Shown piece by piece: positions 6,438-45,383 of a stretch of DNA of 64,000 bases. The number at the start of each line of letters is the position of its first letter. The first letter of the stretch is position 1. A model generated the notes under the pieces. The model made no database searches. It was not told the origin of the DNA and saw only the letters and a program-made list of their open reading frames with translations. The stretch lies in sequence record OQ718158.1; one strand, given 5' to 3'. Origin of the DNA: Escherichia phage vB_Ec-M-J. The position numbers and the translations under genes were made by a program.

Positions 6438-6438
6438 T

Positions 6439-7346: not shown

Positions 7347-7348
7347 TA

Positions 7349-11487: not shown

Positions 11488-11492
11488 ATGCC

Positions 11493-12180: not shown

Positions 12181-12187
12181 GGTTAGT

Positions 12188-12721: not shown

Positions 12722-12747
12722 CACCCTCCAAATCTTTGTGATATAAT
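12718..12747 (+). promoter_or_regulatory. sigma70-like promoter (TTGACA-N18-TGATATAAT)
   Basis: -35 TTGACA 12718-12723, extended -10 TGATATAAT ending 12747, 34 nt upstream of the gene at 12781. Confidence 0.6.
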
Positions 12748-12780
12748 CTCTTTATATTAATTGTAAAGGGTTATATCACA

Positions 12781-31203: not shown

Positions 31204-31460
31204 ATTATAAAGATTTCCAATTAACATTCAAGTGCATTCGTGACCTAGCAAATAAAAATAATAGTATATTTTTAGAAGATACATGTATTGAAATGATTAA
31301 TATTGTGCGTGAGAGGATTAAAGAAAAATTCAGTACTGTAATTATCAACAACGATCATGCAGAATTTTCAGATATAATCATTAAGCTCGATGGTAAAGTA
31401 GAGGTACAGTTCTACACTGATTTTGGATTTACGAGTGTTCCTCTGGAGATATTCCCTTGA
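31200..31460 (+). CDS. hypothetical small protein, family B
   Basis: 86-aa tandem paralog (MNYKDFQLTF). Confidence 0.55.
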   Translation: MNYKDFQLTFKCIRDLANKNNSIFLEDTCIEMINIVRERIKEKFSTVIINNDHAEFSDIIIKLDGKVEVQFYTDFGFTSVPLEIFP

Positions 31461-31768
31461 AATTAAATTTGAATGATGTTCAATTCACGTATAAAAATAT
31501 ATATGGTTTGTATGACATGTATCTTTTTAGTGGGAAGATTGGTGAACATGTCGAATCAAAAGAATCACCATTTATTAATAATTACTATGATTACTTAGAT
31601 TCTATTGCTGAATATATAAAAAAGAATTACAGTACTTACACTGATGGAGATGACATATTTGAATATTCAGGTGTAAAATCTTATCAAGGTATTATCCATG
31701 TAGAATTTCTTGAAAAAACTGATAGGGAATTTATGGAGATTAAAGTTATGAAGTTAACGGACCTATAA
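31457..31768 (+). CDS. hypothetical small protein, family B
   Basis: TTG start overlapping upstream TGA; tandem paralog (LNDVQFTYKNIY). Confidence 0.45.
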   Translation: MKLNLNDVQFTYKNIYGLYDMYLFSGKIGEHVESKESPFINNYYDYLDSIAEYIKKNYSTYTDGDDIFEYSGVKSYQGIIHVEFLEKTDREFMEIKVMKLTDL

Positions 31769-31778
31769 GAGTTGACAT

Positions 31779-32090
31779 ATGAATATTAATGATATACAAT
31801 TCACATACAAATTTTTGTATATCCAATACGCTACGGTTGATGCTGGAGAATATCTCTACGGTGAAATCTATCGTTCGGTATGGATAAAGTTTTTGGATGA
31901 ATTACATGAATATTACCATGATTTGTGTATAGTTCGTGATAATAAAATATACAAATTCCGCGATATTGTTAGTCATAGCGGTAAGCTACGATTGGAATTA
32001 AGTACCGATAGTGATGTTGATTGGATTGGTGTAAATTTACTGGAGTTGGAGAATGAAAAACAACTTAAAGGAAATACAAGTATTTTATAA
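31779..32090 (+). CDS. hypothetical small protein, family B
   Basis: tandem paralog (MNINDIQFTYKFLY). Confidence 0.55.
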   Translation: MNINDIQFTYKFLYIQYATVDAGEYLYGEIYRSVWIKFLDELHEYYHDLCIVRDNKIYKFRDIVSHSGKLRLELSTDSDVDWIGVNLLELENEKQLKGNTSIL

Positions 32091-32337
32091 ATTCTTATAC
32101 TTGTCATATGTAAAAGATGAGTACTATGAAAGTGTGTATTATTTTTTATGGCAACATTACCGTACTATAGTAAGAGATTTATATATAGGAAAATCTATCA
32201 TATCCAATGGTGAAAAATGTATATGTACTGATGTTGTTAGTTTTAATGGTTCTTTAACACTGTGTTTCAGATGCGATAATAATAGTGGGTCATTTTCATT
32301 AAACGTATATCAGTTAGAAGGAATAAATTTTGAATAA
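32053..32337 (+). CDS. hypothetical small protein, family B
   Basis: tandem paralog (LKEIQVFYKFLY). Confidence 0.5.
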   Translation: MKNNLKEIQVFYKFLYLSYVKDEYYESVYYFLWQHYRTIVRDLYIGKSIISNGEKCICTDVVSFNGSLTLCFRCDNNSGSFSLNVYQLEGINFE

Positions 32338-32530
32338 ATGTCCATATTGCAACAGTACTCAATTAGCTCGTTTCCGTTTAGATTCAGACTGGGCCACTGG
32401 TGCTGGTGATTTCTTTCCCATCAATGATGATTCGGAATACACTGAAGAACAGCACAAAGATTTTGATAAATCATGGCGACCTGACATTGAGTGCATTTAT
32501 TGCCTTAATTGTGAGCGTATCCATGACTAA
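32330..32530 (+). CDS. small zinc-ribbon protein
   Basis: CPYC ... CIYCLNC cysteine pairs; TTG start after AAGGA. Confidence 0.45.
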   Translation: MNKCPYCNSTQLARFRLDSDWATGAGDFFPINDDSEYTEEQHKDFDKSWRPDIECIYCLNCERIHD

Positions 32531-32786
32531 AGCTGAACTGATCGTGCAAACACTGCGTTTATTGAGGGATTTAGATATCCCACGCATGGATGTGAAACTT
32601 GAAGATATCTACATTGAATCTCTTAGTGAAGATTACACCGATACCGTAATGATGCTGAATGACGTGCTTTATCGTATAGATAGCATCAGTCGTCTTGGAA
32701 GTACTTTAAAAGTGAATATGGAAAGAGTTGATAAACTTTACGTACATATATATAGTCTACCCATTTCAATATTAAACTATAGATGA
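32523..32786 (+). CDS. hypothetical protein
   Basis: ATG 32523 overlapping upstream stop. Confidence 0.45.
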   Translation: MTKAELIVQTLRLLRDLDIPRMDVKLEDIYIESLSEDYTDTVMMLNDVLYRIDSISRLGSTLKVNMERVDKLYVHIYSLPISILNYR

Positions 32787-33073
32787 ATATTATATTGATA
32801 CAAAAAACATATGCGTTATTGATGAAAGAATATACTAATACTTATGATGAAAAGTGCAGTGCAAATCATAATATGTATAAATTCATCACTCAAGAGTACA
32901 GGGATTATATATATGCTGCGTTAGTTGGTAGATATTTCAGTACTAAAAAACGTAAAGAACTCAAAGTTGTAGATATTACTTTTTTCTACAACGGGCATAT
33001 AACAATTCATGGTGTGGAACATAATTCACAAATATATCGTAACTACTCATCCAATGAGGTAACATTTTTATGA
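32783..33073 (+). CDS. hypothetical small protein, family B
   Basis: 96-aa ORF (MNIILIQKTYALL). Confidence 0.5.
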   Translation: MNIILIQKTYALLMKEYTNTYDEKCSANHNMYKFITQEYRDYIYAALVGRYFSTKKRKELKVVDITFFYNGHITIHGVEHNSQIYRNYSSNEVTFL

Positions 33074-33243
33074 GAGCATTATTTTTTATCTGGAGTCTTT
33101 TTTCACTAGCAGTACTGACAGTAAGTGGGATTTGTTTCCTTTCGACAATGAATGTCTGGTACATTAATTTACTATTCCCATTCGTAGGTGTAGGTTTAGG
33201 ATTTACTTTACATAGTGTTTGTAAGGATTTTAATGGCAAATAA
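33070..33243 (+). CDS. hypothetical small membrane protein (57 aa)
   Basis: ORF not in the ORF track; two hydrophobic segments; ATGA overlap at both ends. Confidence 0.35.
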   Translation: MRALFFIWSLFSLAVLTVSGICFLSTMNVWYINLLFPFVGVGLGFTLHSVCKDFNGK

Positions 33244-33517
33244 ATCGAATGAAGTACTTGTTGCTGAAACAATGAAGATGGTTTATGCCATAACAACTAG
33301 TAATGATTTGTCTTACCCAATTAAGTCCAAGTTGAGGGATATAACTCTTCAGGTTATACAGCAGTACTACAAATCTAAACACAAAAGTATTATTAATGTT
33401 TATCGTGACTATGAAAGGATTCGCATTTTGTTCTGGAACAAGAATCGAGTTCGTTCGGAATGTGATATAGAAAACTTTAAATTTGAGAATCTTTATTGTT
33501 ACAAAGCGGGACAATAG
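33233..33517 (+). CDS. hypothetical small protein, family B-like
   Basis: ATG 33233 after AAGGA. Confidence 0.5.
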   Translation: MANKSNEVLVAETMKMVYAITTSNDLSYPIKSKLRDITLQVIQQYYKSKHKSIINVYRDYERIRILFWNKNRVRSECDIENFKFENLYCYKAGQ

Positions 33518-33535
33518 CTCAAGTAGTGATATAAT
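33508..33535 (+). promoter_or_regulatory. sigma70-like promoter (GGGACA-N16-TGATATAAT)
   Basis: -10 TATAAT 33530-33535 preceded by TGA; -35 GGGACA 33508-33513. Confidence 0.5.
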
Positions 33536-33575
33536 ATTGGGTATGGAACAATAACTAACACAAGGAGTGTGTAAA

Positions 33576-34499
33576 GTGCCAAGTAAAAAGCCAGATTCTG
33601 AAGTATTCAGACTGGTTGATGAAAAATTGAGTTCAATTGGTTCATCGGTAAAAATGGATAGAACAACATACACAACCATATCAAACAAATCAACTTTTTT
33701 CTGTGATGAATGTGGGTTTAGTAAAAATATCATAGTTAGGAATGTGTACAAAAATGGAATATTTTGTCATTGTCCCACATTTAAAACTTTATATAATAAA
33801 TTGGGTGAAATTAATTCAAAATTAAAATTAGATATTTCCACATTCACAACTACAAAAAACAAATCTAGATTTTATTGTGACGATTGTGCGTTTGAAAGAT
33901 ATATGACGGTGCATGATGTTAAGTCTAGAGGTGCATATTGTAAATGTCATTCATTATATTGTATGCCGTTAGATATCGACGAAGCATATAACACTATTAT
34001 GAATAAAATAAAAGATTACTCAAATACAATACATATGGATAAATCTACATACCGTGGTACACAATATAAGGTTAGATTTTATTGTACAGAGTGTAATTTT
34101 GACAAATATATTAATTATAGTAGAGTTAAATGTGGAACTCTTAACTGCAATTGTATCAGACCAATCCCAGAAGAAAGTAAATTATATATTTTAGGAATAT
34201 ATGAACAAAATATTTTAATAAAATATAAAGTTGGTATTTCTACAAAGATTGATAAATCAAGACTAATTAGTATTAGGTCAAAAACTAATTTTATAGTAGA
34301 GGAATTATATTATTTTACTGGAAATACCGAAGTTATTAAAAGTGTAGAATATAATATTTTAAATCTGCTTAAAAATAGTAGTAAATTGTCAAAGGATTAT
34401 TTTGGCGATGGGTATACTGAAACATTTGATTTACAAGATATAAATCTTGTTATTGATTATGTATGTAAATGTTTACTCGAAAATAAATTAAAAATATGA
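33576..34499 (+). CDS. T5orf172/GIY-YIG-like domain protein with three N-terminal zinc-ribbon repeats
   Basis: three ~45-aa repeats each with CxxC ... CxC; C-terminal LYILGIYEQNILIKYKVGIS ... FGDGYTETF; GTG 33576 eight nt after AAGGAG. Confidence 0.55.
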   Translation: MPSKKPDSEVFRLVDEKLSSIGSSVKMDRTTYTTISNKSTFFCDECGFSKNIIVRNVYKNGIFCHCPTFKTLYNKLGEINSKLKLDISTFTTTKNKSRFYCDDCAFERYMTVHDVKSRGAYCKCHSLYCMPLDIDEAYNTIMNKIKDYSNTIHMDKSTYRGTQYKVRFYCTECNFDKYINYSRVKCGTLNCNCIRPIPEESKLYILGIYEQNILIKYKVGISTKIDKSRLISIRSKTNFIVEELYYFTGNTEVIKSVEYNILNLLKNSSKLSKDYFGDGYTETFDLQDINLVIDYVCKCLLENKLKI

Positions 34500-34524
34500 A
34501 AATCATAAACACAAGGAATGTGAA

Positions 34525-35253
34525 ATGATAGATAATATAAAATTTGCAACAGAAATGGCGAATCAACTCAATATAGCAAATTTTCAAATGTTAACATCTG
34601 TTATGGCTGAACATGCTGCTGCATATTCATCTAGTGGTATACAATGTGGACAAGCTAACATGTTAGCTGATGTTTATAGTGAAGTTCAAAGCAAACAATA
34701 TAGCGTGAAGACATACAAGGATAAGTTCGTAAGTCTTTATATGAATGAAGATATTTCAGAAGACCGCAAATTCACCGATTTTATTATTGAACGCCGTATT
34801 AGTGGGGTTTCAGACCCAAATGCAGAAAGTGATATTGTATTCGATGAGGTATTAAAAGATATATACGAAAATGAATTGAAAAGTAAGAATCATTACAATG
34901 TACGTGAAACTAACACAGTGCTAGTTGGATATGATGAAGACGAACAATATTTCTATTTTCGTATAACAGAAGTTCCATTTGAATATAAAAAACCAACCAC
35001 TACATCTGTAAAAGAATTCACTGAGAAGAGTAAAAACTTCAAGAAACACGAAGGAAACCGTTGTAGTATTAATGGTTATGATGAAAATGGTGTTCATGTT
35101 TATGAATGGGTTTCACCTAATTGCCAGACATACACCCGTTGCTTGAAGAAACGTTATAATTTAGAAGACAATGAATCCTTCTACTTTAAAGTTAAGAAAC
35201 AAGGTTATACTCGCCCTGAAGATTCAGAATTGATGGGTATGGTATATTTCTAA
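34525..35253 (+). CDS. hypothetical protein
   Basis: 242-aa ORF; AAGGAA RBS. Confidence 0.6.
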   Translation: MIDNIKFATEMANQLNIANFQMLTSVMAEHAAAYSSSGIQCGQANMLADVYSEVQSKQYSVKTYKDKFVSLYMNEDISEDRKFTDFIIERRISGVSDPNAESDIVFDEVLKDIYENELKSKNHYNVRETNTVLVGYDEDEQYFYFRITEVPFEYKKPTTTSVKEFTEKSKNFKKHEGNRCSINGYDENGVHVYEWVSPNCQTYTRCLKKRYNLEDNESFYFKVKKQGYTRPEDSELMGMVYF

Positions 35254-35262
35254 GGAACTGTT

Positions 35263-35544
35263 ATGGATTTTTACCTACACACATGGTCATACGAACAATA
35301 CATTACATTATATCTTGAGATTATTAATACTGATCCCAGATATGGTTGTGATTTCGCTGATATTATAAAAGAGTATGCAGATGAGTTTGAGTTTGTATAT
35401 CTTGGTTCTGAACTATTTGTAAAGAGTGTAGGTAAAACCGGACGCATCACTGAAATTGATTATGATACTGTTAGTGTGAATTTCTATGTTGATTTTCCTT
35501 GTGATGGCGTTGATGGTGTATATTGTCTATATGAAATAATTTAA
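35263..35544 (+). CDS. hypothetical protein
   Basis: 93-aa ORF; AAGGAA RBS. Confidence 0.5.
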   Translation: MDFYLHTWSYEQYITLYLEIINTDPRYGCDFADIIKEYADEFEFVYLGSELFVKSVGKTGRITEIDYDTVSVNFYVDFPCDGVDGVYCLYEII

Positions 35545-35551
35545 ATTTTAA

Positions 35552-35576
35552 GGCCAGCGTTTGCTGGTCTTTTTTC
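35552..35576 (+). terminator. rho-independent terminator
   Basis: hairpin CCAGC-gtttg-GCTGG followed by TCTTTTTT. Confidence 0.55.
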
Positions 35577-35588
35577 GCAGGTACAAAG

Positions 35589-35891
35589 ATGCTCAGTATA
35601 GATTTAATTAACAGTACTATAAAGTTGTTGGCTGATGTAGTAAAAGAATCCAATGGAACTTTATACCCATCAATGTATAAAATCTTTGAACGATACATCA
35701 AGGATTGTAATATATCCTTATATGGACTGGCAGTTGATATAGACGACCACTATGAAATTAATACTTCATATAAAACTGGAATGTTAATTGGTATTAATAT
35801 AAAGATGGGATATTTTCCTTATTACTGTATAGGATTACCAGATAGTACTATGGTAGATTATCCAGCCAGTATTATTAAACTAAGAGGATAA
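35589..35891 (+). CDS. hypothetical protein
   Basis: 100-aa ORF. Confidence 0.5.
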   Translation: MLSIDLINSTIKLLADVVKESNGTLYPSMYKIFERYIKDCNISLYGLAVDIDDHYEINTSYKTGMLIGINIKMGYFPYYCIGLPDSTMVDYPASIIKLRG

Positions 35892-35898
35892 AACTAAA

Positions 35899-36477
35899 AT
35901 GAATGTATTAGAATTATGTACTAAGCTGATTACTATGCGTAATGAGTGGTACGATTGGTTTTATAATGGTACTGATATGGATTTTTCAAAATATCCATTT
36001 ATGGAATCAGGATGTGATGCAAGATACCGCTGGTTGAGCAAAAGTGGTTCTGGTTTATTCATTCGAATTGATGATAGTGGTCAAGGAATTATAAAAGATT
36101 TAATTCGAGTTGAAGAACTCGTCCATGACAATTGGTGTGATAATGATCCATACCTTGGAAATATGATTTATGTAAGTAAAAATGATTGCATATTCGTTAT
36201 CCAGCGTCATGGTGATTCTATGTTTTATGTAGCAGACAACAGTACACCTGACGGTGCAGCAGCCAATGGACTTATGCCTAAGATTGATATATTGAAATTT
36301 GGATTACCTGAGCACTTCCAGATTAGTACTTTATACGATATTCCACCACTTGAGTTCTTTGAAGAATTTAAATTGTACTTCAATGATCTTCAAAAATTGA
36401 GTACTGATCGACGCATGGAAATAACTGTTAAGTACATGGACGGAACGAAATTAACCGATACGGGGATAGAATTTTGA
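35899..36477 (+). CDS. hypothetical protein with family-A-like motif
   Basis: GAGGA RBS; motif PEHFQISTLYD. Confidence 0.55.
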   Translation: MNVLELCTKLITMRNEWYDWFYNGTDMDFSKYPFMESGCDARYRWLSKSGSGLFIRIDDSGQGIIKDLIRVEELVHDNWCDNDPYLGNMIYVSKNDCIFVIQRHGDSMFYVADNSTPDGAAANGLMPKIDILKFGLPEHFQISTLYDIPPLEFFEEFKLYFNDLQKLSTDRRMEITVKYMDGTKLTDTGIEF

Positions 36478-37163
36478 TTAAAGATTTAGATAGAATTTTA
36501 TATGTACTGAGAGGTGTAATTACATTACAACCACAGGTTAATCGTATGGAGAGAGCCTTTGAATTAAAATCAAGAGAAACTCCATATTCACATATATCAA
36601 ATGTAGTTGGATCATTCAGTACTGAAGACTCGCCTTATGATATTTGTGTATGTGAAGTACAGCCAAGTTCGGATCTTGGATTTGCTATTTTTGATAAAAA
36701 TCAAAATCTCATTAGTATGTTTCAGTGCAATAATCCTTTTTGGAAAACATGCCTGTATCCAGAGTGGGCTATGCTTGATCCAACAAAGAGTTCCATTAAA
36801 GTATATGACTCTAAAAATGATGAAGTCGTTATTGATTTGGATGAGTCAATGTCAGAGGAAGAACACTTTCAGCTAATGATGATGCGTGCTATGCCTGAGT
36901 ACAATGCAATGATTAACACTGTGCAATACATTAAGGATACCATGCCATCGTTGCGTACACATGAGTTTTGTCATCCGGTATTGTATGAACATTTGGATTT
37001 AGATTTCAGTACTATTAAATTTAAAGATAATGTTATTAATTACATTCAAGAGAATGTTAAATTTGATTTTATTAGTACAATGACAAATAATCCAAATACT
37101 AATTTCAGGCATCAGTACAATGAATCTTTGTCTGGTGGTCGTGATACAACTTGGTGGAAATAA
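36474..37163 (+). CDS. hypothetical protein with family-A-like motif
   Basis: TTG start overlapping upstream TGA; motif EEEHFQLMMMRA. Confidence 0.5.
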   Translation: MIKDLDRILYVLRGVITLQPQVNRMERAFELKSRETPYSHISNVVGSFSTEDSPYDICVCEVQPSSDLGFAIFDKNQNLISMFQCNNPFWKTCLYPEWAMLDPTKSSIKVYDSKNDEVVIDLDESMSEEEHFQLMMMRAMPEYNAMINTVQYIKDTMPSLRTHEFCHPVLYEHLDLDFSTIKFKDNVINYIQENVKFDFISTMTNNPNTNFRHQYNESLSGGRDTTWWK

Positions 37164-37164
37164 T

Positions 37165-37428
37165 ATGAATATCCAAGATAGATTGCAATTGTTGCACACA
37201 CTTGAAGAAGCTGCTTTTGAACTTGTTAATAAAATTGCACAAGAACTCCCAAAAGGAACCAAAGTTCGTGTTCGTGAAATGGATTATTTAACGGGAAAAA
37301 TTGATGAAAAAGTTCTAACAGTGATCAAAGTAACATACTATGAATCAGAGTTATCAATTCAATGTAATTCAGATAATGGTTACGTTTCCTACTATGGTAC
37401 AGATGTAGATATAGAGGTAATAAAATGA
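37165..37428 (+). CDS. hypothetical small protein, family B-like
   Basis: ATG 37165 after GGTGG; G-T-K-V-R-V ... G-K-I pattern. Confidence 0.5.
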   Translation: MNIQDRLQLLHTLEEAAFELVNKIAQELPKGTKVRVREMDYLTGKIDEKVLTVIKVTYYESELSIQCNSDNGYVSYYGTDVDIEVIK

Positions 37429-38567
37429 CCCTTTTACAAATATATGAAGATTTAATGCACTTATGTAATACCCGTGATGCTTTCTTTTATGTGGATCATA
37501 AAAGTCCTGCTGGTGGAACATATCGTGTATTCAGTTATCGTCTAGCATCATATACCGATTTCATGCAACCCAATGCATTAGAAACCCGTGGTTCTATGTG
37601 GGAAATTGATGAAGACGGTGATATGATTCGTTGTGCTGCTCGTACTATGAAAAAGTTCTTCAATGCTTACGAAAATCCTGCTACAATGTTCCCTGCTGAT
37701 ACCTCATTCGATGACATTGCAGTAGTGATGCCTAAGTTGGATGGTTCAGTAATCAGTACTTACCGTGATAATGATGGTGTAATTCGTTGTAAATCACATA
37801 CTGCATTGTATTCAGACCATGCGATTAACAGTACTCGTCTTCTCAATGAGAACCAAAATTTGTATCAATACATTGACGAAGCAGACCGTTTGGGCTATAC
37901 TGTTAATCTGGAGTATACAAGTCCAGAGTACCGTATTGTATTACCATATCAGGTTGAACAATTATTTGTACTAAACGTTCGCAATCGTAAGAGTGGTGAA
38001 CTATTATGTGGTTCTGCATTACGTAATAAGTTCCCATGCCTTGCACAGTACAGTACTAACATGACAGGTAAAGATATTCATTACACTTTCCCTGCTCGTG
38101 CTACATTCAAAGAAAGTGTTGAAGAAGTTAAGAAAATGCTTGACATTGAAGGTTTTGTGTGCATCCTAAATAATGGTACAATGTGCAAAATCAAAACCGA
38201 CTGGTATTGTTCTTTGCATTTAACGAAAGACAGTATTATAATCGATTCCCATTTATATGAAGCTGTATTAAATGGTTCGAGTGATGATTTAAAACAGTTG
38301 TTCAGTACTGACGAATATGCTACCCAAAAGATATTAAGAATGGAACAACTAGTCTTTTCGTGCTATAATGCTTTACAAGATGAAGTTGAAAGCTTCGTCA
38401 AGGAACACAAGCACTTGGAGCGAAAGGAATTCGCTAAGAAGGTTCAGGAGTGTTTAACTAATGAACTGAATCGTCAGGGCTTGGCCTTTGCAATGTACAA
38501 CAATAAGAAAGTCGATTACAAAGAGACTCTTATTAAGTACATGAAAATTGTACTAAAGGATTTTTAG
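37425..38567 (+). CDS. rnlA: RNA ligase 1 (T4 Rnl1/gp63-like)
   Basis: 380 aa; N-terminal FFYVDHKSPAGGTYRVFSY and lysine-nucleotidyltransferase motif I MPKLDGSVISTY align with T4 Rnl1. Confidence 0.9.
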   Translation: MTLLQIYEDLMHLCNTRDAFFYVDHKSPAGGTYRVFSYRLASYTDFMQPNALETRGSMWEIDEDGDMIRCAARTMKKFFNAYENPATMFPADTSFDDIAVVMPKLDGSVISTYRDNDGVIRCKSHTALYSDHAINSTRLLNENQNLYQYIDEADRLGYTVNLEYTSPEYRIVLPYQVEQLFVLNVRNRKSGELLCGSALRNKFPCLAQYSTNMTGKDIHYTFPARATFKESVEEVKKMLDIEGFVCILNNGTMCKIKTDWYCSLHLTKDSIIIDSHLYEAVLNGSSDDLKQLFSTDEYATQKILRMEQLVFSCYNALQDEVESFVKEHKHLERKEFAKKVQECLTNELNRQGLAFAMYNNKKVDYKETLIKYMKIVLKDF

Positions 38568-38596
38568 TACTATCTAGCCTAGCACAAGGAGAAGTG

Positions 38597-38851
38597 ATGG
38601 CTAAACCTAAGTATAAAAATGACGGTTCCCTTTCTCCGACAGAATTCAGGAAAATACAAGAAGAAATCGATGAATTACAGCACAAACGCTCTAAGAAAGG
38701 TGTGAAGATTAGTAAGAAACGAATCGAGAATACTTTCGGGTGTAGTAGTACTGAATACAAGAAGAAAAGGAAACCAAAAGGTGTTAAGCCGAGAATACAT
38801 GATGTAACTCGCTATACATCGAAACGTGAAAATAAATTCGACCCACTATAA
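38597..38851 (+). CDS. hypothetical small basic protein
   Basis: ATG 38597 after AAGGAG; Lys/Arg-rich. Confidence 0.5.
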   Translation: MAKPKYKNDGSLSPTEFRKIQEEIDELQHKRSKKGVKISKKRIENTFGCSSTEYKKKRKPKGVKPRIHDVTRYTSKRENKFDPL

Positions 38852-38860
38852 GGAGTTCAT

Positions 38861-39097
38861 ATGAAAGTTGAAGTTCAGCATAGTATTGTTCAGGATATGT
38901 CAGTAGTTAAATTTCTTTCCTTGAAAGATTATTTCAGATGTATCAAGTTCCTAGAAGAATCTCAATTACAGTGGACCCCATTAAAGTACAGTTCATCCAA
39001 TGATACTGCTAGTATTCGTTGTGATGAATCTGTACTTGTGAAAATCTCCAAGCGATTTGGGATTGGAAAATACAATGATAAACAATGCACAAAGTAA
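38861..39097 (+). CDS. hypothetical protein
   Basis: 78-aa ORF; AAGGAG RBS. Confidence 0.5.
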   Translation: MKVEVQHSIVQDMSVVKFLSLKDYFRCIKFLEESQLQWTPLKYSSSNDTASIRCDESVLVKISKRFGIGKYNDKQCTK

Positions 39098-39386
39098 TTT
39101 GCTATATATAAAGTCAGTTGAAGCTGAAATTAAAAATTCAGTTCAAACTATCGTCGAGGAAATGATTGACAAATACAAGAGCAATCTTATTGGAAAGAAA
39201 GTCAGATGTTGGGATTACACATTCAAACACTGGTACGATTCCGAGATTGTGAAAGTTGATGTGAATACTGATAGTAATGGTCTAATTAATGGTATTGCGT
39301 ATGTTGGTGTTTTAATACGCAAGGGAACGCCACAGGAATGGCTCACCTATCATAATATAGAGCATGTTAAATTTATAGAGGATTAA
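39075..39386 (+). CDS. hypothetical small protein, family B-like
   Basis: KYKSNLIGKKVRCWDY ... pattern; start uncertain (39057 or 39075). Confidence 0.45.
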   Translation: MINNAQSNLLYIKSVEAEIKNSVQTIVEEMIDKYKSNLIGKKVRCWDYTFKHWYDSEIVKVDVNTDSNGLINGIAYVGVLIRKGTPQEWLTYHNIEHVKFIED

Positions 39387-39389
39387 AGG

Positions 39390-40322
39390 ATGCCAACTAT
39401 CACACTAACAGTTGGATTGCCTGGGTGTGGTAAAACTACATGGGCAGTGCAAGAGATTAAAAAAGCCAAATCCAAGACTATCAACATCAACCGTGATGAT
39501 ATTCGTGAATCTATGGCTGGGTCACATGATGCTTACAAATTCAACGATGCTAATGAGCAGTACGTAACTAATTTACAGTTCAGTGCAGCAAATTCAGCCG
39601 CAGAGAATGGTTGGAACATCATCATATCCGATACGAACCTTAAACAACATTTCCGTAATCTATGGAAAGTATGGGCTATAGATAATGGTTATGATTACAA
39701 AGAAAAGAATTTCTATGATGATTTTGTACCTAATGAAGACCGTGGTGCAGATGTTCATGAATTCTTTAAGATTAAAGAGTTCGTAAAACTTTGTAAGAAA
39801 TATAACCTCCAGCGTGAGCGTTCAGTACAAGATAATATCATTGACACTATGGCAGATACGTACTATTATAGTAAGGCATTACACATTGGTTACTATGGTA
39901 ATTCACGAGAAGCTGCTATTATCGTTGATATCGACGGTACTCTTGCTCATAAATGGGGACGTAACCCGTTCGATGAAAGTACTGTACTCCAGGATACACC
40001 AGACGAAGAAGTTATTTTGTCGATTATCGCAGAAGCAGTTTTTCATAAACGCAAGATTATCGTCATGAGTGGGCGTACTGAAGGGTGTCGTGCTGATACC
40101 GAACAGTGGCTTAAGAATTGGGGTGTTCCTTACGATGCGTTGTTTATGCGAGGCATCGATGATAAACGTCCTGATGATGTTGTTAAATTCGACCTGTACA
40201 TGAAAAATGTGGTTGATCATTACGATGTTAAAAAGGTTTATGATGACCGCAATCAAGTTGTTTTTATGTGGCGTAAGCTACTTGGGTTGAAAGTTTTCCA
40301 AGTGGCAGAAGGAAATTTCTAA
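39390..40322 (+). CDS. pseT: polynucleotide 5'-kinase / 3'-phosphatase (T4 Pnk-like)
   Basis: 310 aa; Walker A GLPGCGKTT, NINRDD, ISDTNL, HAD motif DIDGTLA, C-terminal WRKLLGLKVFQVAEGNF match T4 PseT. Confidence 0.92.
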   Translation: MPTITLTVGLPGCGKTTWAVQEIKKAKSKTININRDDIRESMAGSHDAYKFNDANEQYVTNLQFSAANSAAENGWNIIISDTNLKQHFRNLWKVWAIDNGYDYKEKNFYDDFVPNEDRGADVHEFFKIKEFVKLCKKYNLQRERSVQDNIIDTMADTYYYSKALHIGYYGNSREAAIIVDIDGTLAHKWGRNPFDESTVLQDTPDEEVILSIIAEAVFHKRKIIVMSGRTEGCRADTEQWLKNWGVPYDALFMRGIDDKRPDDVVKFDLYMKNVVDHYDVKKVYDDRNQVVFMWRKLLGLKVFQVAEGNF

Positions 40323-40328
40323 TACAAA

Positions 40329-40358
40329 AGGGATCATATATTGGTCCCTTTTTCTTTT
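40329..40358 (+). terminator. rho-independent terminator
   Basis: hairpin GGGATCA...TGGTCCC followed by TTTTTCTTTT. Confidence 0.6.
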
Positions 40359-40389
40359 AAGGTACATTATAGTGAATGTAACAACACAG

Positions 40390-40548
40390 ATGTTATTACG
40401 AAAAGACTACTTAGAAAATATAGAAAGATACTACAGAATGTCTTTGTATGAAAATAAACATAAAAATTATAATTTTAATAAACTACTAAATTCCAGTACT
40501 GAAGATTATCTATTTTCATCAATGTTTTATGTGAGAGGATTATTGTAA
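40390..40548 (+). CDS. hypothetical small protein (52 aa)
   Basis: short ORF not in the ORF track, stop overlapping next start (TAATG); no clear RBS. Confidence 0.3.
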   Translation: MLLRKDYLENIERYYRMSLYENKHKNYNFNKLLNSSTEDYLFSSMFYVRGLL

Positions 40549-40808
40549 TGGATAAATTTCACACAGATATATCACAGATAGGTAATCTTATCAATAGTCT
40601 AATTACTGATTTAGAAGAAAAGTACTTAGGACGAAATGTATACTTAGAAATGTATGAAACATATGGTGTTATTGATATGATTTATTACAGTGCATTGAAG
40701 TATGAAATACGTTTAACTGTATGTTTATATGAAAAAGGTACATTTAAAAGAAGTACTGCAATTCGTCAAGTTGGAGTTGATGACATGGAATTATACGAGG
40801 AACACTGA
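40548..40808 (+). CDS. hypothetical small protein, family B-like
   Basis: AGAGGA RBS; EEKYLGRNVYLEMYETYG pattern. Confidence 0.5.
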   Translation: MDKFHTDISQIGNLINSLITDLEEKYLGRNVYLEMYETYGVIDMIYYSALKYEIRLTVCLYEKGTFKRSTAIRQVGVDDMELYEEH

Positions 40809-41059
40809 TGTTTGAGCAGGACTTAGAGCTATTCAAAAGTTATGTCGAGTACTTAGTTACATTAGAAAAAGAGCTAACGACAAAGTACAAAGGTATTCGT
40901 GTTCTGTGCTGGTATGATGATTCGGATTATAAACGTGAACTCACCATTGACCGAATCTATTTCATCGACGGTGTATTGAATGTGCATGGTGTAAATGATT
41001 TTGGACATTCATATACTTATTCGAATAATGCTAAATTCAAGAGGATTGACAATGAATGA
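40808..41059 (+). CDS. hypothetical small protein, family B-like
   Basis: KYKGIRVLCWYDDSDY pattern. Confidence 0.5.
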   Translation: MFEQDLELFKSYVEYLVTLEKELTTKYKGIRVLCWYDDSDYKRELTIDRIYFIDGVLNVHGVNDFGHSYTYSNNAKFKRIDNE

Positions 41060-41354
41060 GTACTATCAAAATTTATTCAATTACATAAAACTAATAGATG
41101 ATCTTGCTTTCGATTTTCTTAGTACTGATAAAGTTGGTGAGCCTTTATATTATGATTGTATTGGAACACTTTGTTCAGATGAAAAGAATATATTAGAAAA
41201 TAAATTACCGTCATCACAGTGCTTAATCAATGGTTCCAAAGCAGTAATAACTGATGTTAATTTTTATAAATCTCTTAATACTATTTGTTATGTATTCAAT
41301 AACACTGTGTTTAAACATGTAACAAGTAATATTAAATCTGTGAGGTTCTTATGA
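41052..41354 (+). CDS. hypothetical protein
   Basis: ATG 41052 after AAGAGGA. Confidence 0.5.
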   Translation: MNEYYQNLFNYIKLIDDLAFDFLSTDKVGEPLYYDCIGTLCSDEKNILENKLPSSQCLINGSKAVITDVNFYKSLNTICYVFNNTVFKHVTSNIKSVRFL

Positions 41355-41647
41355 ATTTAAAACTTTTGTTAGAACAGGTACATTTATTGTATAGCTGTGC
41401 TGATGGTTCTGATAAGGAGTATAGTGAAGTTTATTTAGAACTGTTTAGAACGGAAATACACATAATTAGAAGATACTTAATTGATAATAAAACTGAAGTA
41501 AAAGTTAGATACCATAATGGTACTTTAAAGAATGGTATAATTATTGGATTGATAGTTACACGAATGTCTAGTAATATTAAAGTTGCAGTTAGATTAATGA
41601 CTGATGATGGTGTCTACACCATAGAAGTAAGTGAGATTATATATTAA
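41351..41647 (+). CDS. hypothetical small protein, family B-like
   Basis: NKTEVKVRYHNGTLKNGIIIG pattern. Confidence 0.5.
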   Translation: MNLKLLLEQVHLLYSCADGSDKEYSEVYLELFRTEIHIIRRYLIDNKTEVKVRYHNGTLKNGIIIGLIVTRMSSNIKVAVRLMTDDGVYTIEVSEIIY

Positions 41648-41953
41648 ATGGATATACAAACATTCAATAAACTAAAGTACTATGACAATGGTTTTGCTAT
41701 TATCATTGATGAACTAGATGGAATACCATATGAGTATCATAATGATGTAATGAAGATAGTAAAAAGTATTTGTAATGATTTAAAAACTATTTTCGAAAAT
41801 GAATATGTATACGACTTAGGTACAAACAATAAGAAACTATACATAAAGAAATTCTGTGGAACGCATTGTGGTCTGATGGTTGATTTAGGTTTAAGTGCTG
41901 ACAACAATTTCGAAGCATGTAGTTTATATCTGGATGAAATGCGAATCTCATGA
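41648..41953 (+). CDS. hypothetical protein
   Basis: 101-aa ORF. Confidence 0.5.
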   Translation: MDIQTFNKLKYYDNGFAIIIDELDGIPYEYHNDVMKIVKSICNDLKTIFENEYVYDLGTNNKKLYIKKFCGTHCGLMVDLGLSADNNFEACSLYLDEMRIS

Positions 41954-41979
41954 GACATATCTTGATTCGGTGATATAAT
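41952..41979 (+). promoter_or_regulatory. sigma70-like promoter (GAGACA-N16-TGATATAAT)
   Basis: -10 TATAAT 41974-41979 preceded by TGA; -35 GAGACA 41952-41957. Confidence 0.5.
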
Positions 41980-42001
41980 TTCATTACAACACTGACATGG
42001 A

Positions 42002-42340
42002 GTGGTTGTTGTGAATAACGATTTTTTAAAAATGTGGGAAAAAACAATAGTAATTCTATCTAGTTCATTAATGCACATTTTCAGTACTGATAATTCTTAT
42101 AGTTCACATACATTTGATTTAATATGTAATAACTATGTAAATGGTATATCAGATGAAATATGTCCATTCATTGCGTATTCACCGGATGGTATTGAAGAAT
42201 TTAATATATGCAACATCAGTTGTGGTTTTGGTGATTGGCTTGTGTTAAATGATCGAGGTGGAATCTGTTTATACATCGAAGATATTGGTAAATTTATATA
42301 CAAAGGAGTAGAATATGTTAACAATCGCAGCAGTTATTAG
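42002..42340 (+). CDS. hypothetical protein
   Basis: GTG start; Cys-rich 112-aa ORF downstream of a promoter. Confidence 0.4.
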   Translation: MVVVNNDFLKMWEKTIVILSSSLMHIFSTDNSYSSHTFDLICNNYVNGISDEICPFIAYSPDGIEEFNICNISCGFGDWLVLNDRGGICLYIEDIGKFIYKGVEYVNNRSSY

Positions 42341-42911
42341 TGTACTTGGTGTAGTTATTGCAGGTATGCTTGCATACAATTACAATCGTAGTGTTATCGG
42401 CTATGTACTACTTAGTCTAGTACTAACCCCAGTACTCACCATCGTTACTTTATTAGTGCTAGGTGAACGTAATATCAACTTCATGATTAATGATAAACGT
42501 GATCAGGTTACACCAGAACCTGAAAAAGTTATTCCTGAAGAACAAGAAGAACTTAAAGTTGAAGTTCAAATGCAAGTGAATGTTCACAATGCACTTGATG
42601 AAACTGATCCAAAAGTTAATGTTACTGTTGTTCCTGTCGTCAATGAAGTAAAGCCTAAAGCAGCACCGAAAAGTACTAAAGCACCAAAGAGCACCAAGAC
42701 TACAAAGAAAGCTCGCTATACTAAAGGGAAGAATAAAAACAAAGTCCAAGATGAACCACAACAAGGTACACACGACCATACTTCCCATATTATTACAGCA
42801 GCCACCACCGCAGCAATCGTAACGCCATATATCTCTTCTGCTGATACTGGTTCATATGATAGCTCTAGCTGTGATTCAAGCTCTAGTTCAAGTTCCGGTA
42901 GCTGTGATTAA
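42315..42911 (+). CDS. membrane protein with Lys-rich linker and Ser-rich C-terminus
   Basis: AGGAG RBS; two N-terminal hydrophobic helices; KAPKSTK repeats; SSSSSSSGSCD tail. Confidence 0.55.
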   Translation: MLTIAAVISVLGVVIAGMLAYNYNRSVIGYVLLSLVLTPVLTIVTLLVLGERNINFMINDKRDQVTPEPEKVIPEEQEELKVEVQMQVNVHNALDETDPKVNVTVVPVVNEVKPKAAPKSTKAPKSTKTTKKARYTKGKNKNKVQDEPQQGTHDHTSHIITAATTAAIVTPYISSADTGSYDSSSCDSSSSSSSGSCD

Positions 42912-42913
42912 CA

Positions 42914-43246
42914 ATGAAACATCTTGCACAATATAATCAGTACTTGATTGCGTTGCATCAAATGAAAGATGATTTCTATAAAAGTGCAGAAACAGAACTC
43001 GTCGGTAAGATAGTAAAATTTACTGACGAGTACATCAACCGATATGCGGAAATGGACGATGATCCAGAGTATGAATCATACTACCAGTACATAAATCCCA
43101 ATACAAGAATGAGAATTATTGAAATTATGAAATACGGTATACGTTTAATTGCACAAGTAGAATACATCAATCACGATGCAATTGATGCCGCTGCCTTTGG
43201 TGATGAAATAAGTTTAGAATATCTTATTCAAGTTGATGAGGAATAA
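42914..43246 (+). CDS. hypothetical protein
   Basis: 110-aa ORF. Confidence 0.5.
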   Translation: MKHLAQYNQYLIALHQMKDDFYKSAETELVGKIVKFTDEYINRYAEMDDDPEYESYYQYINPNTRMRIIEIMKYGIRLIAQVEYINHDAIDAAAFGDEISLEYLIQVDEE

Positions 43247-43248
43247 TA

Positions 43249-43464
43249 ATGACTACATTTTTTGCAATATATGGATTTGTTGCGTTTTGCTCATTTATAT
43301 GTAACTTTCTAGTACTGAATTGGAAATGTTTCAAAGATGAAATCATAACTGCAATGAGTCTACAATCAGCAGCACTAATGGCTATAATTTGGCCTGTAAC
43401 TATGGTGTATCTTTTTATCTCAATAACAAAAGATATCATATCCCACTTCAAGAGAAAGAAATAA
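43249..43464 (+). CDS. hypothetical small membrane protein
   Basis: 71 aa; GAGGAA RBS; two hydrophobic segments. Confidence 0.45.
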   Translation: MTTFFAIYGFVAFCSFICNFLVLNWKCFKDEIITAMSLQSAALMAIIWPVTMVYLFISITKDIISHFKRKK

Positions 43465-43718
43465 TGTTCAACACCGACTATTCACATTTGCGATATCTTA
43501 TGTCTTTGGCTGATGATTTTATTAATGATTTGAAGCCGAAGTATATTGGACAAGAAGTACGTTTGATAAACTCAAGGGGTTATGGGAAGTACATTATCGC
43601 TGATATGTATATTAGCGGTGGTGAATGGCGTTTCAAAGTTAATACGTATCTTAAAGATGGTTCTTTTGCAGGTACACAAGTTACAAAACACACTAACATT
43701 ATATGGTTGGAACAATAA
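43464..43718 (+). CDS. hypothetical small protein, family B-like
   Basis: ATG 43464 overlapping upstream TAA; KYIGQEVRLINSRGYGKY pattern. Confidence 0.5.
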   Translation: MFNTDYSHLRYLMSLADDFINDLKPKYIGQEVRLINSRGYGKYIIADMYISGGEWRFKVNTYLKDGSFAGTQVTKHTNIIWLEQ

Positions 43719-44461
43719 TGAAACATTTTTTGGAAGTTACAGTACCGGATGATAAAGATTTATATATCGTTGGTGATTTACACGGCAATGGAAAACTGTG
43801 GGATGCTACCAAGAAAGAATTTGGTATCACCAATAATGACTATGTTTTTTGTGTAGGTGATGTTATTGACCGTGGTGACCAGAATTCCAAACTACTATTT
43901 GAATTCCTTTTCGGTGAAAACCGTTTTATGATTGCTGGGAACCACGAGATCATGTGTGTTGATTCTGAAACTCACCGTGACTGGCATCACTGTTGGGTAC
44001 AAAATGGTGGAGATAAGTTCATTGATGAAGTTGGTGAGACAGGTATACAGTTCTTCCGTCAGTACTTAAAGGATCTCCCTATGATTATCCAAATCAATCA
44101 CCGAGGATTGAAGATTGGACTGGTTCATGCTGGTGTTCCTTTGGAATATACCACATGGGAACGTTTCGTTAGTGGGACAAAATCACTTAGTGCTGATATA
44201 ATTGAGAAGTGCTTGTGGGACCGTGATACATTCGACTACTGCAAGAAAAATAACACATATTACGTCCCTAGACTTGATGGCATCCATTGCGTCTTTAGTG
44301 GTCATACCGCAGTATCCGACCCACTCATCTACGGTAATCGTATCTGGATTGATAGTCAGTTTTTAACTGGTGATTTGACTCTTGCAACTCCCCAAAGTGG
44401 CGGGATGAGATACTTACGTAAAGAAAAAGATGAGTATTCATTTAACCGCTTCAAAAGGTAA
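43718..44461 (+). CDS. Ser/Thr protein phosphatase (PPP family, lambda-PPase-like)
   Basis: GDLHGN, GDVIDRGD and GNHE metallophosphatase motifs in canonical order. Confidence 0.8.
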   Translation: MKHFLEVTVPDDKDLYIVGDLHGNGKLWDATKKEFGITNNDYVFCVGDVIDRGDQNSKLLFEFLFGENRFMIAGNHEIMCVDSETHRDWHHCWVQNGGDKFIDEVGETGIQFFRQYLKDLPMIIQINHRGLKIGLVHAGVPLEYTTWERFVSGTKSLSADIIEKCLWDRDTFDYCKKNNTYYVPRLDGIHCVFSGHTAVSDPLIYGNRIWIDSQFLTGDLTLATPQSGGMRYLRKEKDEYSFNRFKR

Positions 44462-44745: not shown

Positions 44746-44973
44746 ATGAAAGTAATTCAAGTTATGGTAGAAAAATACCAAACCGAAGATGGTCGTATTT
44801 TTGATTCAGCAAAACAAGCTGAACACCATGAACGTATTATTTCTGGAGCACGTAAAGTGTGCCCTACATGTAATGGTACACAACAAGTTCCATCTGAAGA
44901 CTATCGCAGTTATTATGCTTGTCCACATTGTGATGGTAAAGGGTTTGTAGAAAAACAAGAGGTATGGAAATGA
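44746..44973 (+). CDS. small zinc-ribbon protein
   Basis: CPTCNG ... CPHCDG; AAGGAAA RBS. Confidence 0.5.
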   Translation: MKVIQVMVEKYQTEDGRIFDSAKQAEHHERIISGARKVCPTCNGTQQVPSEDYRSYYACPHCDGKGFVEKQEVWK

Positions 44974-45383
44974 AATTATATTGCTTAACAAACATGTACT
45001 GTCAAGGTGTCCAAGCTGGCATTCAAGCATTTCATGCTGGTGTTAAACTAATTAAAGAATATGAAGGTACTGCTTTCAGTACTATTATTGATGAATGGTA
45101 TTATGACCACGAAACTATTGTAGTACTAAATGCTGGTGGTCATGATAAGTTAAATTCTTATTATGATGACCTTTGTAAGCAGGGGAAAGTTCCATTCGCT
45201 AAATTCAATGAAGCCGGATTAAATGATGCAACTACATGTGTAGCAGTACTATGTACATCTGAAATGGTTGAAGACATGTCTGTTATGCGTATGAATCTTC
45301 CTGCTGGGGATCAACTAATGCAAGTAAAATATGGTGCATTGTTTAACACATTAAAAGCAATTAGCACAATGAGGACTGTTTGA
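44964..45383 (+). CDS. hypothetical protein
   Basis: 139-aa ORF. Confidence 0.5.
   Translation: MEMKLYCLTNMYCQGVQAGIQAFHAGVKLIKEYEGTAFSTIIDEWYYDHETIVVLNAGGHDKLNSYYDDLCKQGKVPFAKFNEAGLNDATTCVAVLCTSEMVEDMSVMRMNLPAGDQLMQVKYGALFNTLKAISTMRTV

What the first reader, a model, noticed from the sequence alone, without database searches (positions are those of the whole stretch)
37425..40322. RNA ligase 1 plus polynucleotide kinase/phosphatase: a complete tRNA-repair module
Rnl1-like (37425..38567) and Pnk-like (39390..40322) genes lie 0.8 kb apart in one transcription unit, separated by three small ORFs. In T4 this enzyme pair heals and seals tRNA cut by the host anticodon nuclease PrrC. Their presence implies the host range includes strains with anticodon-nuclease defences. 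The small basic ORFs between them (38597..39386) could be accessory factors.
Basis: established knowledge. Interest (0 to 1): 0.45.

Follow-up and report, generated by a model that had tools for sequence, protein, structure and literature searches.

The report
Known T4-type tRNA repair gene pair
This stretch of a giant E. coli phage carries the well-known T4-style RNA ligase and polynucleotide kinase/phosphatase pair that mends cut tRNAs; the pair is already annotated in sister phages, and the only fresh detail is that two tiny unknown proteins always sit between the two enzymes across this whole phage group.

Summary
The 380-aa ORF at 37425-38567 is a T4 Rnl1-family RNA ligase. The 310-aa ORF at 39390-40322 is a T4 Pnkp-type 5'-kinase/3'-phosphatase. 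They lie 822 nt apart on one strand, with three small ORFs between them and a terminator-like hairpin just after pnk.

The adenylylation lysine (K104, KLDG) and the HAD aspartates (D180, D182 in DIDGT) are present. Nearly all other catalytic residues recalled as essential in T4 are present too.

The window is about 99% identical to PBECO4-like jumbo coliphages that already carry these annotations. The anti-Prr idea is already published for phAPEC6. The finding is therefore ordinary and already known.

Three details are new:
- The motif Ia lysine (T4 K119) is His, Gln or Asn across the whole jumbo-phage branch.
- Two of the three small ORFs form a conserved four-gene island with the enzymes in 10-11 of 11 related loci. 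These are s1 (basic, directly after Rnl1) and s2 (directly before Pnk). The surrounding genes differ between loci. Both are orphans under strong purifying selection.
- The third small ORF is acidic, found only in Escherichia phages, and variable.

The host-range inference is weak, because the module is ancestral to a clade that infects many genera.

The parts
37425..38567 (+). Rnl1-family ATP-dependent RNA ligase, 380 aa: adenylyltransferase domain plus T4_Rnl1_C tRNA-specificity domain
   Evidence: Pfam PF09511 and PF20819, PHROG 562. PDB 2c5u 3e-56, 37% identity to T4. K104 (KLDG), R55, K77, F79, G107, E163, E242, G243, K255, K257 and Y261 are conserved. T4 K119 aligns to H125. dN/dS 0.06 against PBECO4.
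38597..38851 (+). s1: 84-aa very basic orphan protein (pI 10.1, 25 K+R), always immediately 3' of Rnl1 in the jumbo clade
   Evidence: PHROG 15306, unknown function. 55 phage records, all jumbo. The profile hits the ORF directly after Rnl1 in 11/11 loci. dN/dS 0.03. AAGGAG Shine-Dalgarno. AF2 model is helical, pLDDT 71, with no fold match.
38861..39097 (+). s2: 78-aa orphan protein (pI 9.1) with a beta-beta-alpha-beta-beta-alpha fold; the best-conserved gene of the block, normally abutting or overlapping the Pnk start
39075..39386 (+). s3: 103-aa acidic ORF; a lineage-specific, variable insert between s2 and Pnk, not part of the conserved core
   Evidence: tblastn finds 31 records, all Escherichia phages, in two variants at 90-98% (mostly 96-98%) and 34-40% identity. 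0/10 in related loci. pI 5.9 and dN/dS 0.10. Only marginal similarity to neighbouring small paralogs, E 0.07-0.14.
39390..40322 (+). T4 Pnkp-type bifunctional polynucleotide 5'-kinase / 3'-phosphatase, 310 aa: N-terminal P-loop kinase plus C-terminal DxDxT HAD phosphatase
   Evidence: Pfam AAA_33 and HAD_PNKP 1.8e-43, PHROG 505. PDB 1ltq 2.7e-38, 38% identity. K15, T16, D36, R39 and D81 conserved in the kinase. D180, D182, R191, R229, D262 and D286 conserved in the phosphatase. R142 is the probable equivalent of T4 R126. dN/dS 0.05.
40326..40352 (+). Intrinsic-terminator-like hairpin with U-tract; probable 3' end of the transcription unit
   Evidence: 11-bp stem, -14.4 kcal/mol, z = -3.9. Phage Munch has an annotated terminator at the same place after its kinase.

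Best explanation
This is a T4-type 'heal and seal' RNA repair module.

[quoted passage not shown] Pnk (39390-40322) removes the 3' phosphate through its DxDxT aspartyl-phosphatase domain and phosphorylates the 5'-OH through its P-loop kinase domain. Rnl1 (37425-38567) self-adenylylates on K104, transfers AMP to the 5'-phosphate and seals the break. Its C-terminal domain directs it to tRNA.

In this phage lineage the two enzymes sit in a conserved four-gene island, Rnl1-s1-...-s2-Pnk. It is co-transcribed and ends at a terminator. The two small orphan proteins s1 (basic, helical) and s2 (compact alpha+beta) most likely work with the enzymes.

What is shown and what is inferred: enzyme identity, intact active sites, conserved linkage and purifying selection are shown. 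Activity, tRNA as the substrate, the counter-defence role and any role of s1 and s2 are inferred.
For: - Family membership by Pfam, PHROG and PDB.
- Catalytic residues are conserved against T4. They are invariant across 119 aligned sequences (117 homologs, T4 and the window) except at one position.
- The Rnl1 C-terminal tRNA-specificity domain is present. Its role is described in PMC6379707.
- Same gene order as T4 rnlA...pseT.
- Tight packing and a terminator after pnk.
- Strong purifying selection on all five genes, dN/dS 0.03-0.10.
- Rnl1, s1, s2 and Pnk are the only genes consistently shared around the ligase in 10 related loci. By profile, s1 is present in 11/11 loci and s2 in 10/11, counting the window.
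- Literature: the anti-Prr role is proposed for phAPEC6. Rnl1 with PNK-HAD, plus PTH2 and PIN-PhoH, is described as jumbo-phage RNA repair and ribosome-rescue equipment. A PTH2-like gene (44964-45383) and a PIN-PhoH gene (57076-58515) are in this window.
Against: - No activity data, and no anticodon nuclease identified for any host.
- The motif Ia lysine (T4 K119, which I recall as essential from Wang, Ho, Pei and Shuman 2003) is His here, so kinetics or step preference may differ from T4.
- T4 R126 aligns to Q141. The adjacent R142 is the likely equivalent, but the alignment there is disturbed by a ~19-aa insertion.
- T4 Rnl1 also has a second function, tail-fibre attachment. The N-terminal domain of T4 rnlA is needed even on K-12, so tRNA repair need not be the only or main role.
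- s1 and s2 have no detectable homolog of known function.
Confidence: 0.75

Rival explanations
1. Rnl1 here serves mainly, or additionally, as a tail-fibre attachment catalyst like T4 gp63. Its linkage to Pnk would then be inherited gene order, not a dedicated tRNA-repair operon.
For: Many database annotations carry the gp63 dual label. The HIDEN-SEQ preprint reports that T4 rnlA's N-terminal domain is required even on E. coli K-12 without a prr system.
Against: Every ligase catalytic residue except the motif Ia position is invariant across 119 aligned sequences, which argues that catalysis is under selection. The gene sits among early-type small genes and nucleic-acid enzymes, not structural genes. 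The Rnl1-Pnk linkage survives while all flanks turn over.
Confidence: 0.15
2. The pair is a general nucleic-acid end-repair system that is not aimed specifically at anticodon-nuclease damage. Its substrates could be mRNA or rRNA cut by toxin RNases, phage transcripts, or DNA 3'-phosphate ends.
For: Neighbours include an ATP-dependent DNA ligase, two metallophosphoesterases, PIN-PhoH and SIR2. From established knowledge, T4 Pnkp acts on DNA as well as RNA. The motif Ia change could alter how the 5'-phosphate substrate is handled.
Against: The T4_Rnl1_C domain, which confers anticodon-loop specificity in T4, is retained. In the distant relatives L014 and L016 a PTH2-like peptidyl-tRNA hydrolase lies next to Pnk or one gene downstream of it, which points to tRNA and translation.
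Confidence: 0.2
3. s1 and s2 are unrelated passenger genes, such as host-takeover or regulatory proteins, that happen to be trapped between two conserved enzymes. They are not accessory factors of the repair module.
For: No homology or fold link to any RNA-repair protein. The spacer clearly accepts unrelated inserts: s3 here, one to three other small genes in RaK2, L010 and GAP32-type loci. T4's spacer holds functionally unrelated genes such as alc. L015 has Rnl1 and Pnk without s2.
Against: The positions are fixed. s1 always starts 5-29 nt after the Rnl1 stop. In 7 of the 10 s2-bearing loci, s2 overlaps the Pnk start or ends within about 13 nt of it. s2 is more conserved than either enzyme in most comparisons (9 of 10 versus Pnk, 8 of 9 versus Rnl1). 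All other neighbours turn over.
Confidence: 0.45

Closest known systems
Bacteriophage T4 RnlA (gp63) and PseT (Pnkp) tRNA repair pathway against the PrrC anticodon nuclease
   Same: Same two enzyme families and the same domain architectures, including the Rnl1 C-domain and the kinase-HAD fusion. 37-38% identity, the same catalytic residues, and the same gene order and strand with small genes in between.
   Different: Motif Ia Lys119 is replaced by His. Pnk has a ~19-aa insertion before the lid helix. The intervening genes are unrelated: T4 has alc and pseT.1-3, and this clade has s1 and s2. The target nuclease is unknown.
Annotated orthologs in PBECO4 / phAPEC6 / EC.P1 / 121Q (Asteriusvirus) and in GAP32, RaK2, Munch, XaC1
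   Same: Essentially the same genes: 93-99% nucleotide identity to the Asteriusvirus records, already labelled RNA ligase 1 and polynucleotide kinase. The same island is present in the wider clade.
   Different: Nothing substantive. Synonymous divergence from PBECO4 jumps at the Rnl1/s1 boundary (dS 0.59 versus about 0.13), which suggests allele exchange by recombination.
Bacterial Pnkp1-Rnl-Pnkp2 type RNA repair system (PDB 4xrp Pnkp1)
   Same: Pnkp1 has the same T4-like kinase-HAD architecture and matches over its full length (E 7e-31). From memory, that system pairs a Pnkp with an RNA ligase.
   Different: It is cellular, not viral, and its ligase partner and complex organisation differ. 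This comparison was not tested further here.
Fungal tRNA ligase Trl1 (Rnl6 clade), LIG domain
   Same: Shares the Rnl1-like adenylyltransferase with an N-terminal subdomain. Its motif Ia lysine contacts the ATP gamma-phosphate and is proposed to bind the RNA 5'-PO4 (PMC6379707).
   Different: Different C-domain, a requirement for a 2'-PO4 end, and healing domains fused in one polypeptide.

Membership tests
Rnl1 family RNA ligase (T4 RnlA type) | Motif I KxDG with the adenylylated lysine | tested here: met
   K104-L-D-G aligns to T4 K99-E-D-G. K, D and G are invariant in 119/119 sequences.
Rnl1 family RNA ligase (T4 RnlA type) | [quoted passage not shown] | tested here: met
   R55, K77 and F79 are present. 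R and K are invariant in 119/119 and F in 117/119. Their roles are described in PMC6379707.
Rnl1 family RNA ligase (T4 RnlA type) | Motif Ia Ser-Lys (T4 S118-K119) | tested here: not met
   S124 is kept, but the Lys position is H125. Across the family the column is H 46, K 41, Q 18, N 14, and all sequences at 49% identity or more to the window lack Lys. This is a lineage-wide substitution. It lowers strict motif identity but not family membership, which rests on a full-length match.
Rnl1 family RNA ligase (T4 RnlA type) | Motifs IV (EGxV) and V (xKxK), plus E159 and Y246 | tested here: met
   E242-G243-F-V, K255-I-K257, E163 and Y261 are present, all invariant in 119/119.
Rnl1 family RNA ligase (T4 RnlA type) | All-helical C-terminal domain that confers tRNA specificity | tested here: met
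   Pfam PF20819 T4_Rnl1_C, residues 268-379, E 2.6e-16, 60.5 bits against a cutoff of 27.
Rnl1 family RNA ligase (T4 RnlA type) | ATP-dependent sealing of 3'-OH/5'-PO4 RNA ends | not testable with these tools
   Needs biochemistry.
T4 Pnkp family (5'-kinase / 3'-phosphatase) | N-terminal P-loop kinase: GxGK[ST], plus the Asp general base and Arg (T4 K15, S16, D35, R38, D85) | tested here: met
   GCGKT (K15, T16), D36, R39 and D81 in SDTN. They are invariant across five jumbo-clade sequences and T4, apart from the S/T exchange.
T4 Pnkp family (5'-kinase / 3'-phosphatase) | Kinase lid arginine (T4 R126) | tested here: inconclusive
   It aligns to Q141. The neighbouring R142 in 'NLxR' is invariant in 5/5 jumbo-clade sequences. 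The alignment is shifted by one residue after a 19-33 aa insertion.
T4 Pnkp family (5'-kinase / 3'-phosphatase) | C-terminal DxDxT acylphosphatase: nucleophile Asp, second Asp, and T4 R176, R213, D254, D278 | tested here: met
   D180-I-D182-G-T184, R191, R229, D262 and D286. Pfam HAD_PNKP 1.8e-43, full length.
T4-type anti-anticodon-nuclease tRNA repair system | Both healing and sealing enzymes are encoded and co-expressed | tested here: met
   Both genes are present, on one strand, with gaps of -23 to +29 nt and a shared terminator. Co-expression itself is inferred.
T4-type anti-anticodon-nuclease tRNA repair system | Required for growth on hosts with an anticodon nuclease (PrrC); repaired tRNA-Lys detectable | not testable with these tools
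   No host genome or phenotype is available. Proposed only by analogy for phAPEC6.

The most novel reading that the evidence does not exclude
s1 and s2 are dedicated, previously unrecognised components of a four-protein RNA-repair machine specific to RaK2-like jumbo phages. One possibility is that s1 is a basic tRNA- or RNA-binding adaptor for Rnl1, perhaps compensating for or cooperating with the altered motif Ia. s2 could be a partner or regulator of Pnk that is translationally coupled to it. Alternatively, one of them could be a direct inhibitor of a host tRNA nuclease encoded alongside the repair enzymes.
Probability: 0.3. Interest if true: 0.55.

Novelty: already known. Interest (0 to 1): 0.25.

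Why it matters
As it stands, the finding confirms a textbook counter-defence module in a phage group where it is already annotated, so it adds little. There are two modest leads.

- **A conserved four-gene island.** The island Rnl1-s1-s2-Pnk contains two strongly selected orphan proteins. It gives a concrete, testable handle on whether phage heal-and-seal repair uses accessory subunits, which T4 work has never suggested.
- **A natural motif Ia variant.** Lys is replaced by His, Gln or Asn in a ligase that is otherwise invariant. This offers a ready-made series for probing the role of that residue in pyrophosphate release and 5'-phosphate binding.

For phage therapy with Asteriusvirus-type phages, knowing that the module is intact helps predict resistance to tRNA-cleaving abortive-infection systems.

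Tried and rejected
- **tRNAs and structured RNAs.** tRNA scan and Rfam scan of the whole window found nothing, so there is no tRNA genes or known structured RNA associated with the module in the window.
- **Promoters.** Sigma-70 promoter matches were fewer than in shuffles (45 versus 55), so there is no usable promoter call.
- **T4 spacer genes.** T4 alc and pseT.1-3 show no similarity to the s1 or s2 profiles.
- **s3 as a paralog.** Its membership in the local family of small paralogous proteins is only marginal (E 0.07-0.14) and is left undecided.
- **s1/s2 versus the motif Ia change.** I looked for a correlation and rejected it. L014 and L016 ligases keep Lys and still have s1 and s2.
- **The 242-aa upstream ORF (34525-35253).** No Pfam or PDB sequence match.
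- **Lys119 citation.** I could not find a citable full text for the T4 K119 mutagenesis. That point rests on recalled knowledge.
- **Other RNA-repair enzymes.** Pfam on 20 selected larger ORFs between about 24.5 and 62 kb found no Rnl2, RtcB, RlaP, CCA-adding enzyme or 2H phosphoesterase. The first 24 kb and the smaller ORFs were not scanned.
Full report
**1. What is there**

The window is + strand coding almost throughout. It is 98-99% identical over 36400-41100 to PBECO4-like (Asteriusvirus-type) jumbo coliphages such as EC.P1, Turkey3 and CMSTMSU, and about 93% identical to PBECO4 itself.

- 37425-38567, 380 aa.
- 39390-40322, 310 aa, 822 nt downstream on the same strand.
- s1, 38597-38851, 84 aa.
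- s2, 38861-39097, 78 aa.
- s3, 39075-39386, 103 aa.

**2. Enzyme identity**

The 380-aa protein matches Pfam RNA_lig_T4_1 and T4_Rnl1_C, PHROG 562 (9.5e-108), and the T4 Rnl1 crystal structures at E about 3e-56.

The 310-aa protein matches AAA_33 and HAD_PNKP (1.8e-43), PHROG 505 (1.5e-94), T4 Pnkp structures (2.7e-38), and a bacterial Pnkp1 (7e-31) over its full length.

Identity to the T4 proteins is 37% and 38%.

**3. Catalytic residues**

I aligned both proteins to T4. The list of residues essential in T4 comes from my recollection of the Shuman-laboratory mutagenesis papers. Part of it is corroborated by PMC6379707.

Rnl1 has K104 in KLDG (T4 K99), R55, K77, F79, G107, E163, E242-G243, K255, K257 and Y261.

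I then aligned 117 homologs from a 5.8-billion-protein search with T4 and the window. All these positions are invariant (F77 in 117/119), with one exception. That exception is the motif Ia lysine (T4 S118-K119), which is H125 here.
- The column splits by lineage. The T4-like branch and some distant jumbo relatives keep Lys (41 sequences).
- The jumbo-phage branch has His (46), Gln (18) or Asn (14).
- Every sequence at 49% identity or more to the window lacks Lys.
- In the related fungal ligase this lysine contacts the ATP gamma-phosphate and is proposed to bind the RNA 5'-phosphate.
- The change is lineage-wide and everything else is frozen. I therefore read it as a tolerated or compensated variant, not as inactivation.

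Pnk has the P-loop GCGKT (K15, T16), D36, R39 and D81 in the kinase domain. It has D180-I-D182-G-T, R191, R229, D262 and D286 in the phosphatase domain. T4 R126 aligns to Q141. However, R142, in an 'NLxR' motif invariant in five jumbo-clade sequences, sits one residue away after a 19-33 aa clade-specific insertion. It is the probable equivalent.

**4. Operon structure**

Gaps within the block are -4, +29, +9, -23 and +3 nt.

The only convincing terminator-like element in 34-43.5 kb is at 40326-40352, 4 nt after the pnk stop. It has an 11-bp stem, -14.4 kcal/mol, z = -3.9 against shuffles, then a UUUUUCUUUU tract. It is followed by the largest intergenic gap in the area, 225 nt. Phage Munch has an annotated terminator at the equivalent position.

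No promoter could be called: sigma-70-like matches are below shuffle expectation. Co-transcription is thus plausible, with a defined 3' end and an undefined 5' end. The nearest upstream gaps longer than 100 nt are at 33.1-33.7 kb.

**5. Comparison with T4**

T4 has rnlA-alc-pseT.3-pseT.2-pseT.1-pseT on one strand. That is the same order, with 1.4 kb of small genes between the enzymes. The intervening genes are not homologous to s1 or s2.

**6. The small ORFs**

All three are real genes by selection. dN/dS against PBECO4 is 0.03 for s1, 0.05 for s2 and 0.10 for s3. The values are 0.06 for Rnl1, 0.05 for Pnk, and 0.12-0.42 for the flanking genes. The substitution counts for s1 and s2 are small (8:1 and 5:1).

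s1 and s2 carry the best Shine-Dalgarno sequences in the block, AAGGAG.

Distribution in the phage collection:
- s1 occurs in 55 records and s2 in 70.
- All but one short 47-kb Klebsiella record (phiKp_21, likely partial) are RaK2-like jumbo phages.
- Their hosts are Escherichia, Klebsiella, Salmonella, Cronobacter, Erwinia, Yersinia, Pectobacterium, Serratia and Xanthomonas.
- s3 occurs only in Escherichia phages, in two variants at 90-98% (mostly 96-98%) and 34-40% identity.

Gene order:
- In GAP32, RaK2, XaC1, Munch, five metagenomic loci found through s2, and three more distant loci found through Rnl1, the order is always Rnl1, s1-like, zero or one variable gene, s2-like, zero to three variable genes, Pnk.
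- With local profile searches, s1 is the ORF directly after Rnl1 in 11/11 loci.
- s2 is the ORF directly before Pnk in 10/11 loci, including an uncalled ORF in L014. It is absent in L015.
- In 7 of the 10 s2-bearing loci, s2 overlaps the Pnk start or ends within about 13 nt of it. That suggests translational coupling.
- In this window s3 has been inserted between s2 and Pnk.

Control for general collinearity: of 29 window genes between 33 and 46.7 kb, only Rnl1, s1, s2 and Pnk are consistently found within 4 kb of the ligase in ten related loci. None of the small flanking ORFs is found in any of them, and a few larger flanking ORFs recur only sporadically.

s2 is more conserved than Pnk in 9 of 10 loci and than Rnl1 in 8 of the 9 loci that carry it (57-71% identity, against 46-67% for Rnl1 and 40-63% for Pnk).

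Globally s2 is an orphan. There are 35 clusters at 90% identity. An exhaustive profile search of 1.84 billion representatives found only three genuine clusters.

Structure predictions:
- s1: very basic (pI 10.1), predicted helical at modest confidence, with no fold or Pfam match.

The presence of s1 and s2 does not track the motif Ia substitution. L014 and L016 ligases keep Lys and still have both.

**7. Interpretation**

The best explanation is the textbook one, a heal-and-seal RNA repair pair of the T4 type. The evidence is intact active sites, the tRNA-specificity domain, conserved linkage and strong purifying selection.

The mechanism is taken from established T4 knowledge and is not shown here: cyclic-phosphate and 3'-phosphate removal and 5'-phosphorylation by Pnkp, then three-step ATP-dependent sealing by Rnl1.

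The counter-defence role is likewise inferred. It has already been proposed for the sister phage phAPEC6 (PMC7247149). It has also been proposed for jumbo phages generally, together with PTH2 peptidyl-tRNA hydrolase and PIN-PhoH (PMC7824862). Both of those genes are also in this window. A PTH2-like gene lies next to Pnk in L016 and one gene further downstream in L014.

The host-range inference is weak. The island is ancestral to a clade spanning many host genera, and the target nuclease is unknown.

A second, non-repair role for Rnl1 in tail-fibre attachment, as in T4 gp63, cannot be excluded. T4 rnlA's N-terminal domain is required even on K-12.

**8. Novelty and score**

As far as I could check, three things are not described:
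- The conserved four-gene island with two orphan proteins.
- The clade-wide motif Ia substitution.
- A synonymous-divergence jump at the Rnl1/s1 boundary relative to PBECO4 (dS 0.59 against about 0.13), which suggests recombination within the module.

These are modest leads, so I set interest at 0.25. The most novel reading not excluded is that s1 and s2 are true components of the repair machine or inhibitors of a tRNA nuclease. I give that a probability of about 0.3.

Noticed in passing
window 37425-38600, compared with L008 (PBECO4): Synonymous divergence from PBECO4 is about 0.6 for Rnl1 and the ORF upstream of it (37141-37428), but only 0.12-0.18 for s1, s2, s3 and Pnk. That implies a recombination breakpoint near the Rnl1/s1 junction, that is, allele shuffling inside the module.
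   Followed up: partly
window 44964-45383: A 139-aa PTH2-like peptidyl-tRNA hydrolase: Pfam PTH2 8.5e-5, just at the cutoff; PHROG 3668 'hydrolase' 1.6e-44. Its homologs lie immediately downstream of Pnk in L016 and one gene further downstream in L014, which suggests a looser link between ribosome rescue and the repair island.
   Followed up: partly
window 34525-35253: A 242-aa ORF (PHROG 16105, no Pfam or PDB match) is found upstream of Rnl1 in 6 of 10 related loci at 45-65% identity, and directly adjacent to it in L015. It may be a fifth, loosely linked member of the neighbourhood.
   Followed up: partly
window 130-14976 and 30934-43718: The window is full of tandem paralog families of small proteins. 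One family has 13 members and one has 7 in the first 15 kb. A looser network of about 85-110 aa proteins surrounds the repair island, for example 30934-32337, 32783-33073, 40548-41059 and 43464-43718.
   Followed up: partly
window 43703-44461, 46594-48012, 48032-48823: Downstream of the island there is a NinI-like Ser/Thr phosphatase (Metallophos), an ATP-dependent DNA ligase and a second metallophosphoesterase. A Pnk ... Metallophos ... DNA ligase order also appears in the distant locus L015.
   Followed up: no
window 55169-55837 and 57076-58515: A SIR2-family protein and a PIN-PhoH fusion (PIN endoRNase plus PhoH ATPase). Both are discussed in the jumbo-phage literature as conflict or RNA-related functions.
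   Followed up: no
window 28659-29713: A Dam-type N6-adenine DNA methyltransferase (Pfam 1e-32) is followed by a cytidylyltransferase-like protein with an HxGH motif (PHROG 3041 3.7e-52). The second may be an NMN/NaMN adenylyltransferase-type enzyme.
   Followed up: no
window 39700-39770 (Pnk residues ~107-125): Jumbo-clade Pnk proteins carry a 19-33 aa insertion between the kinase core and the lid helix that T4 Pnkp lacks. Its function is unknown.
   Followed up: no
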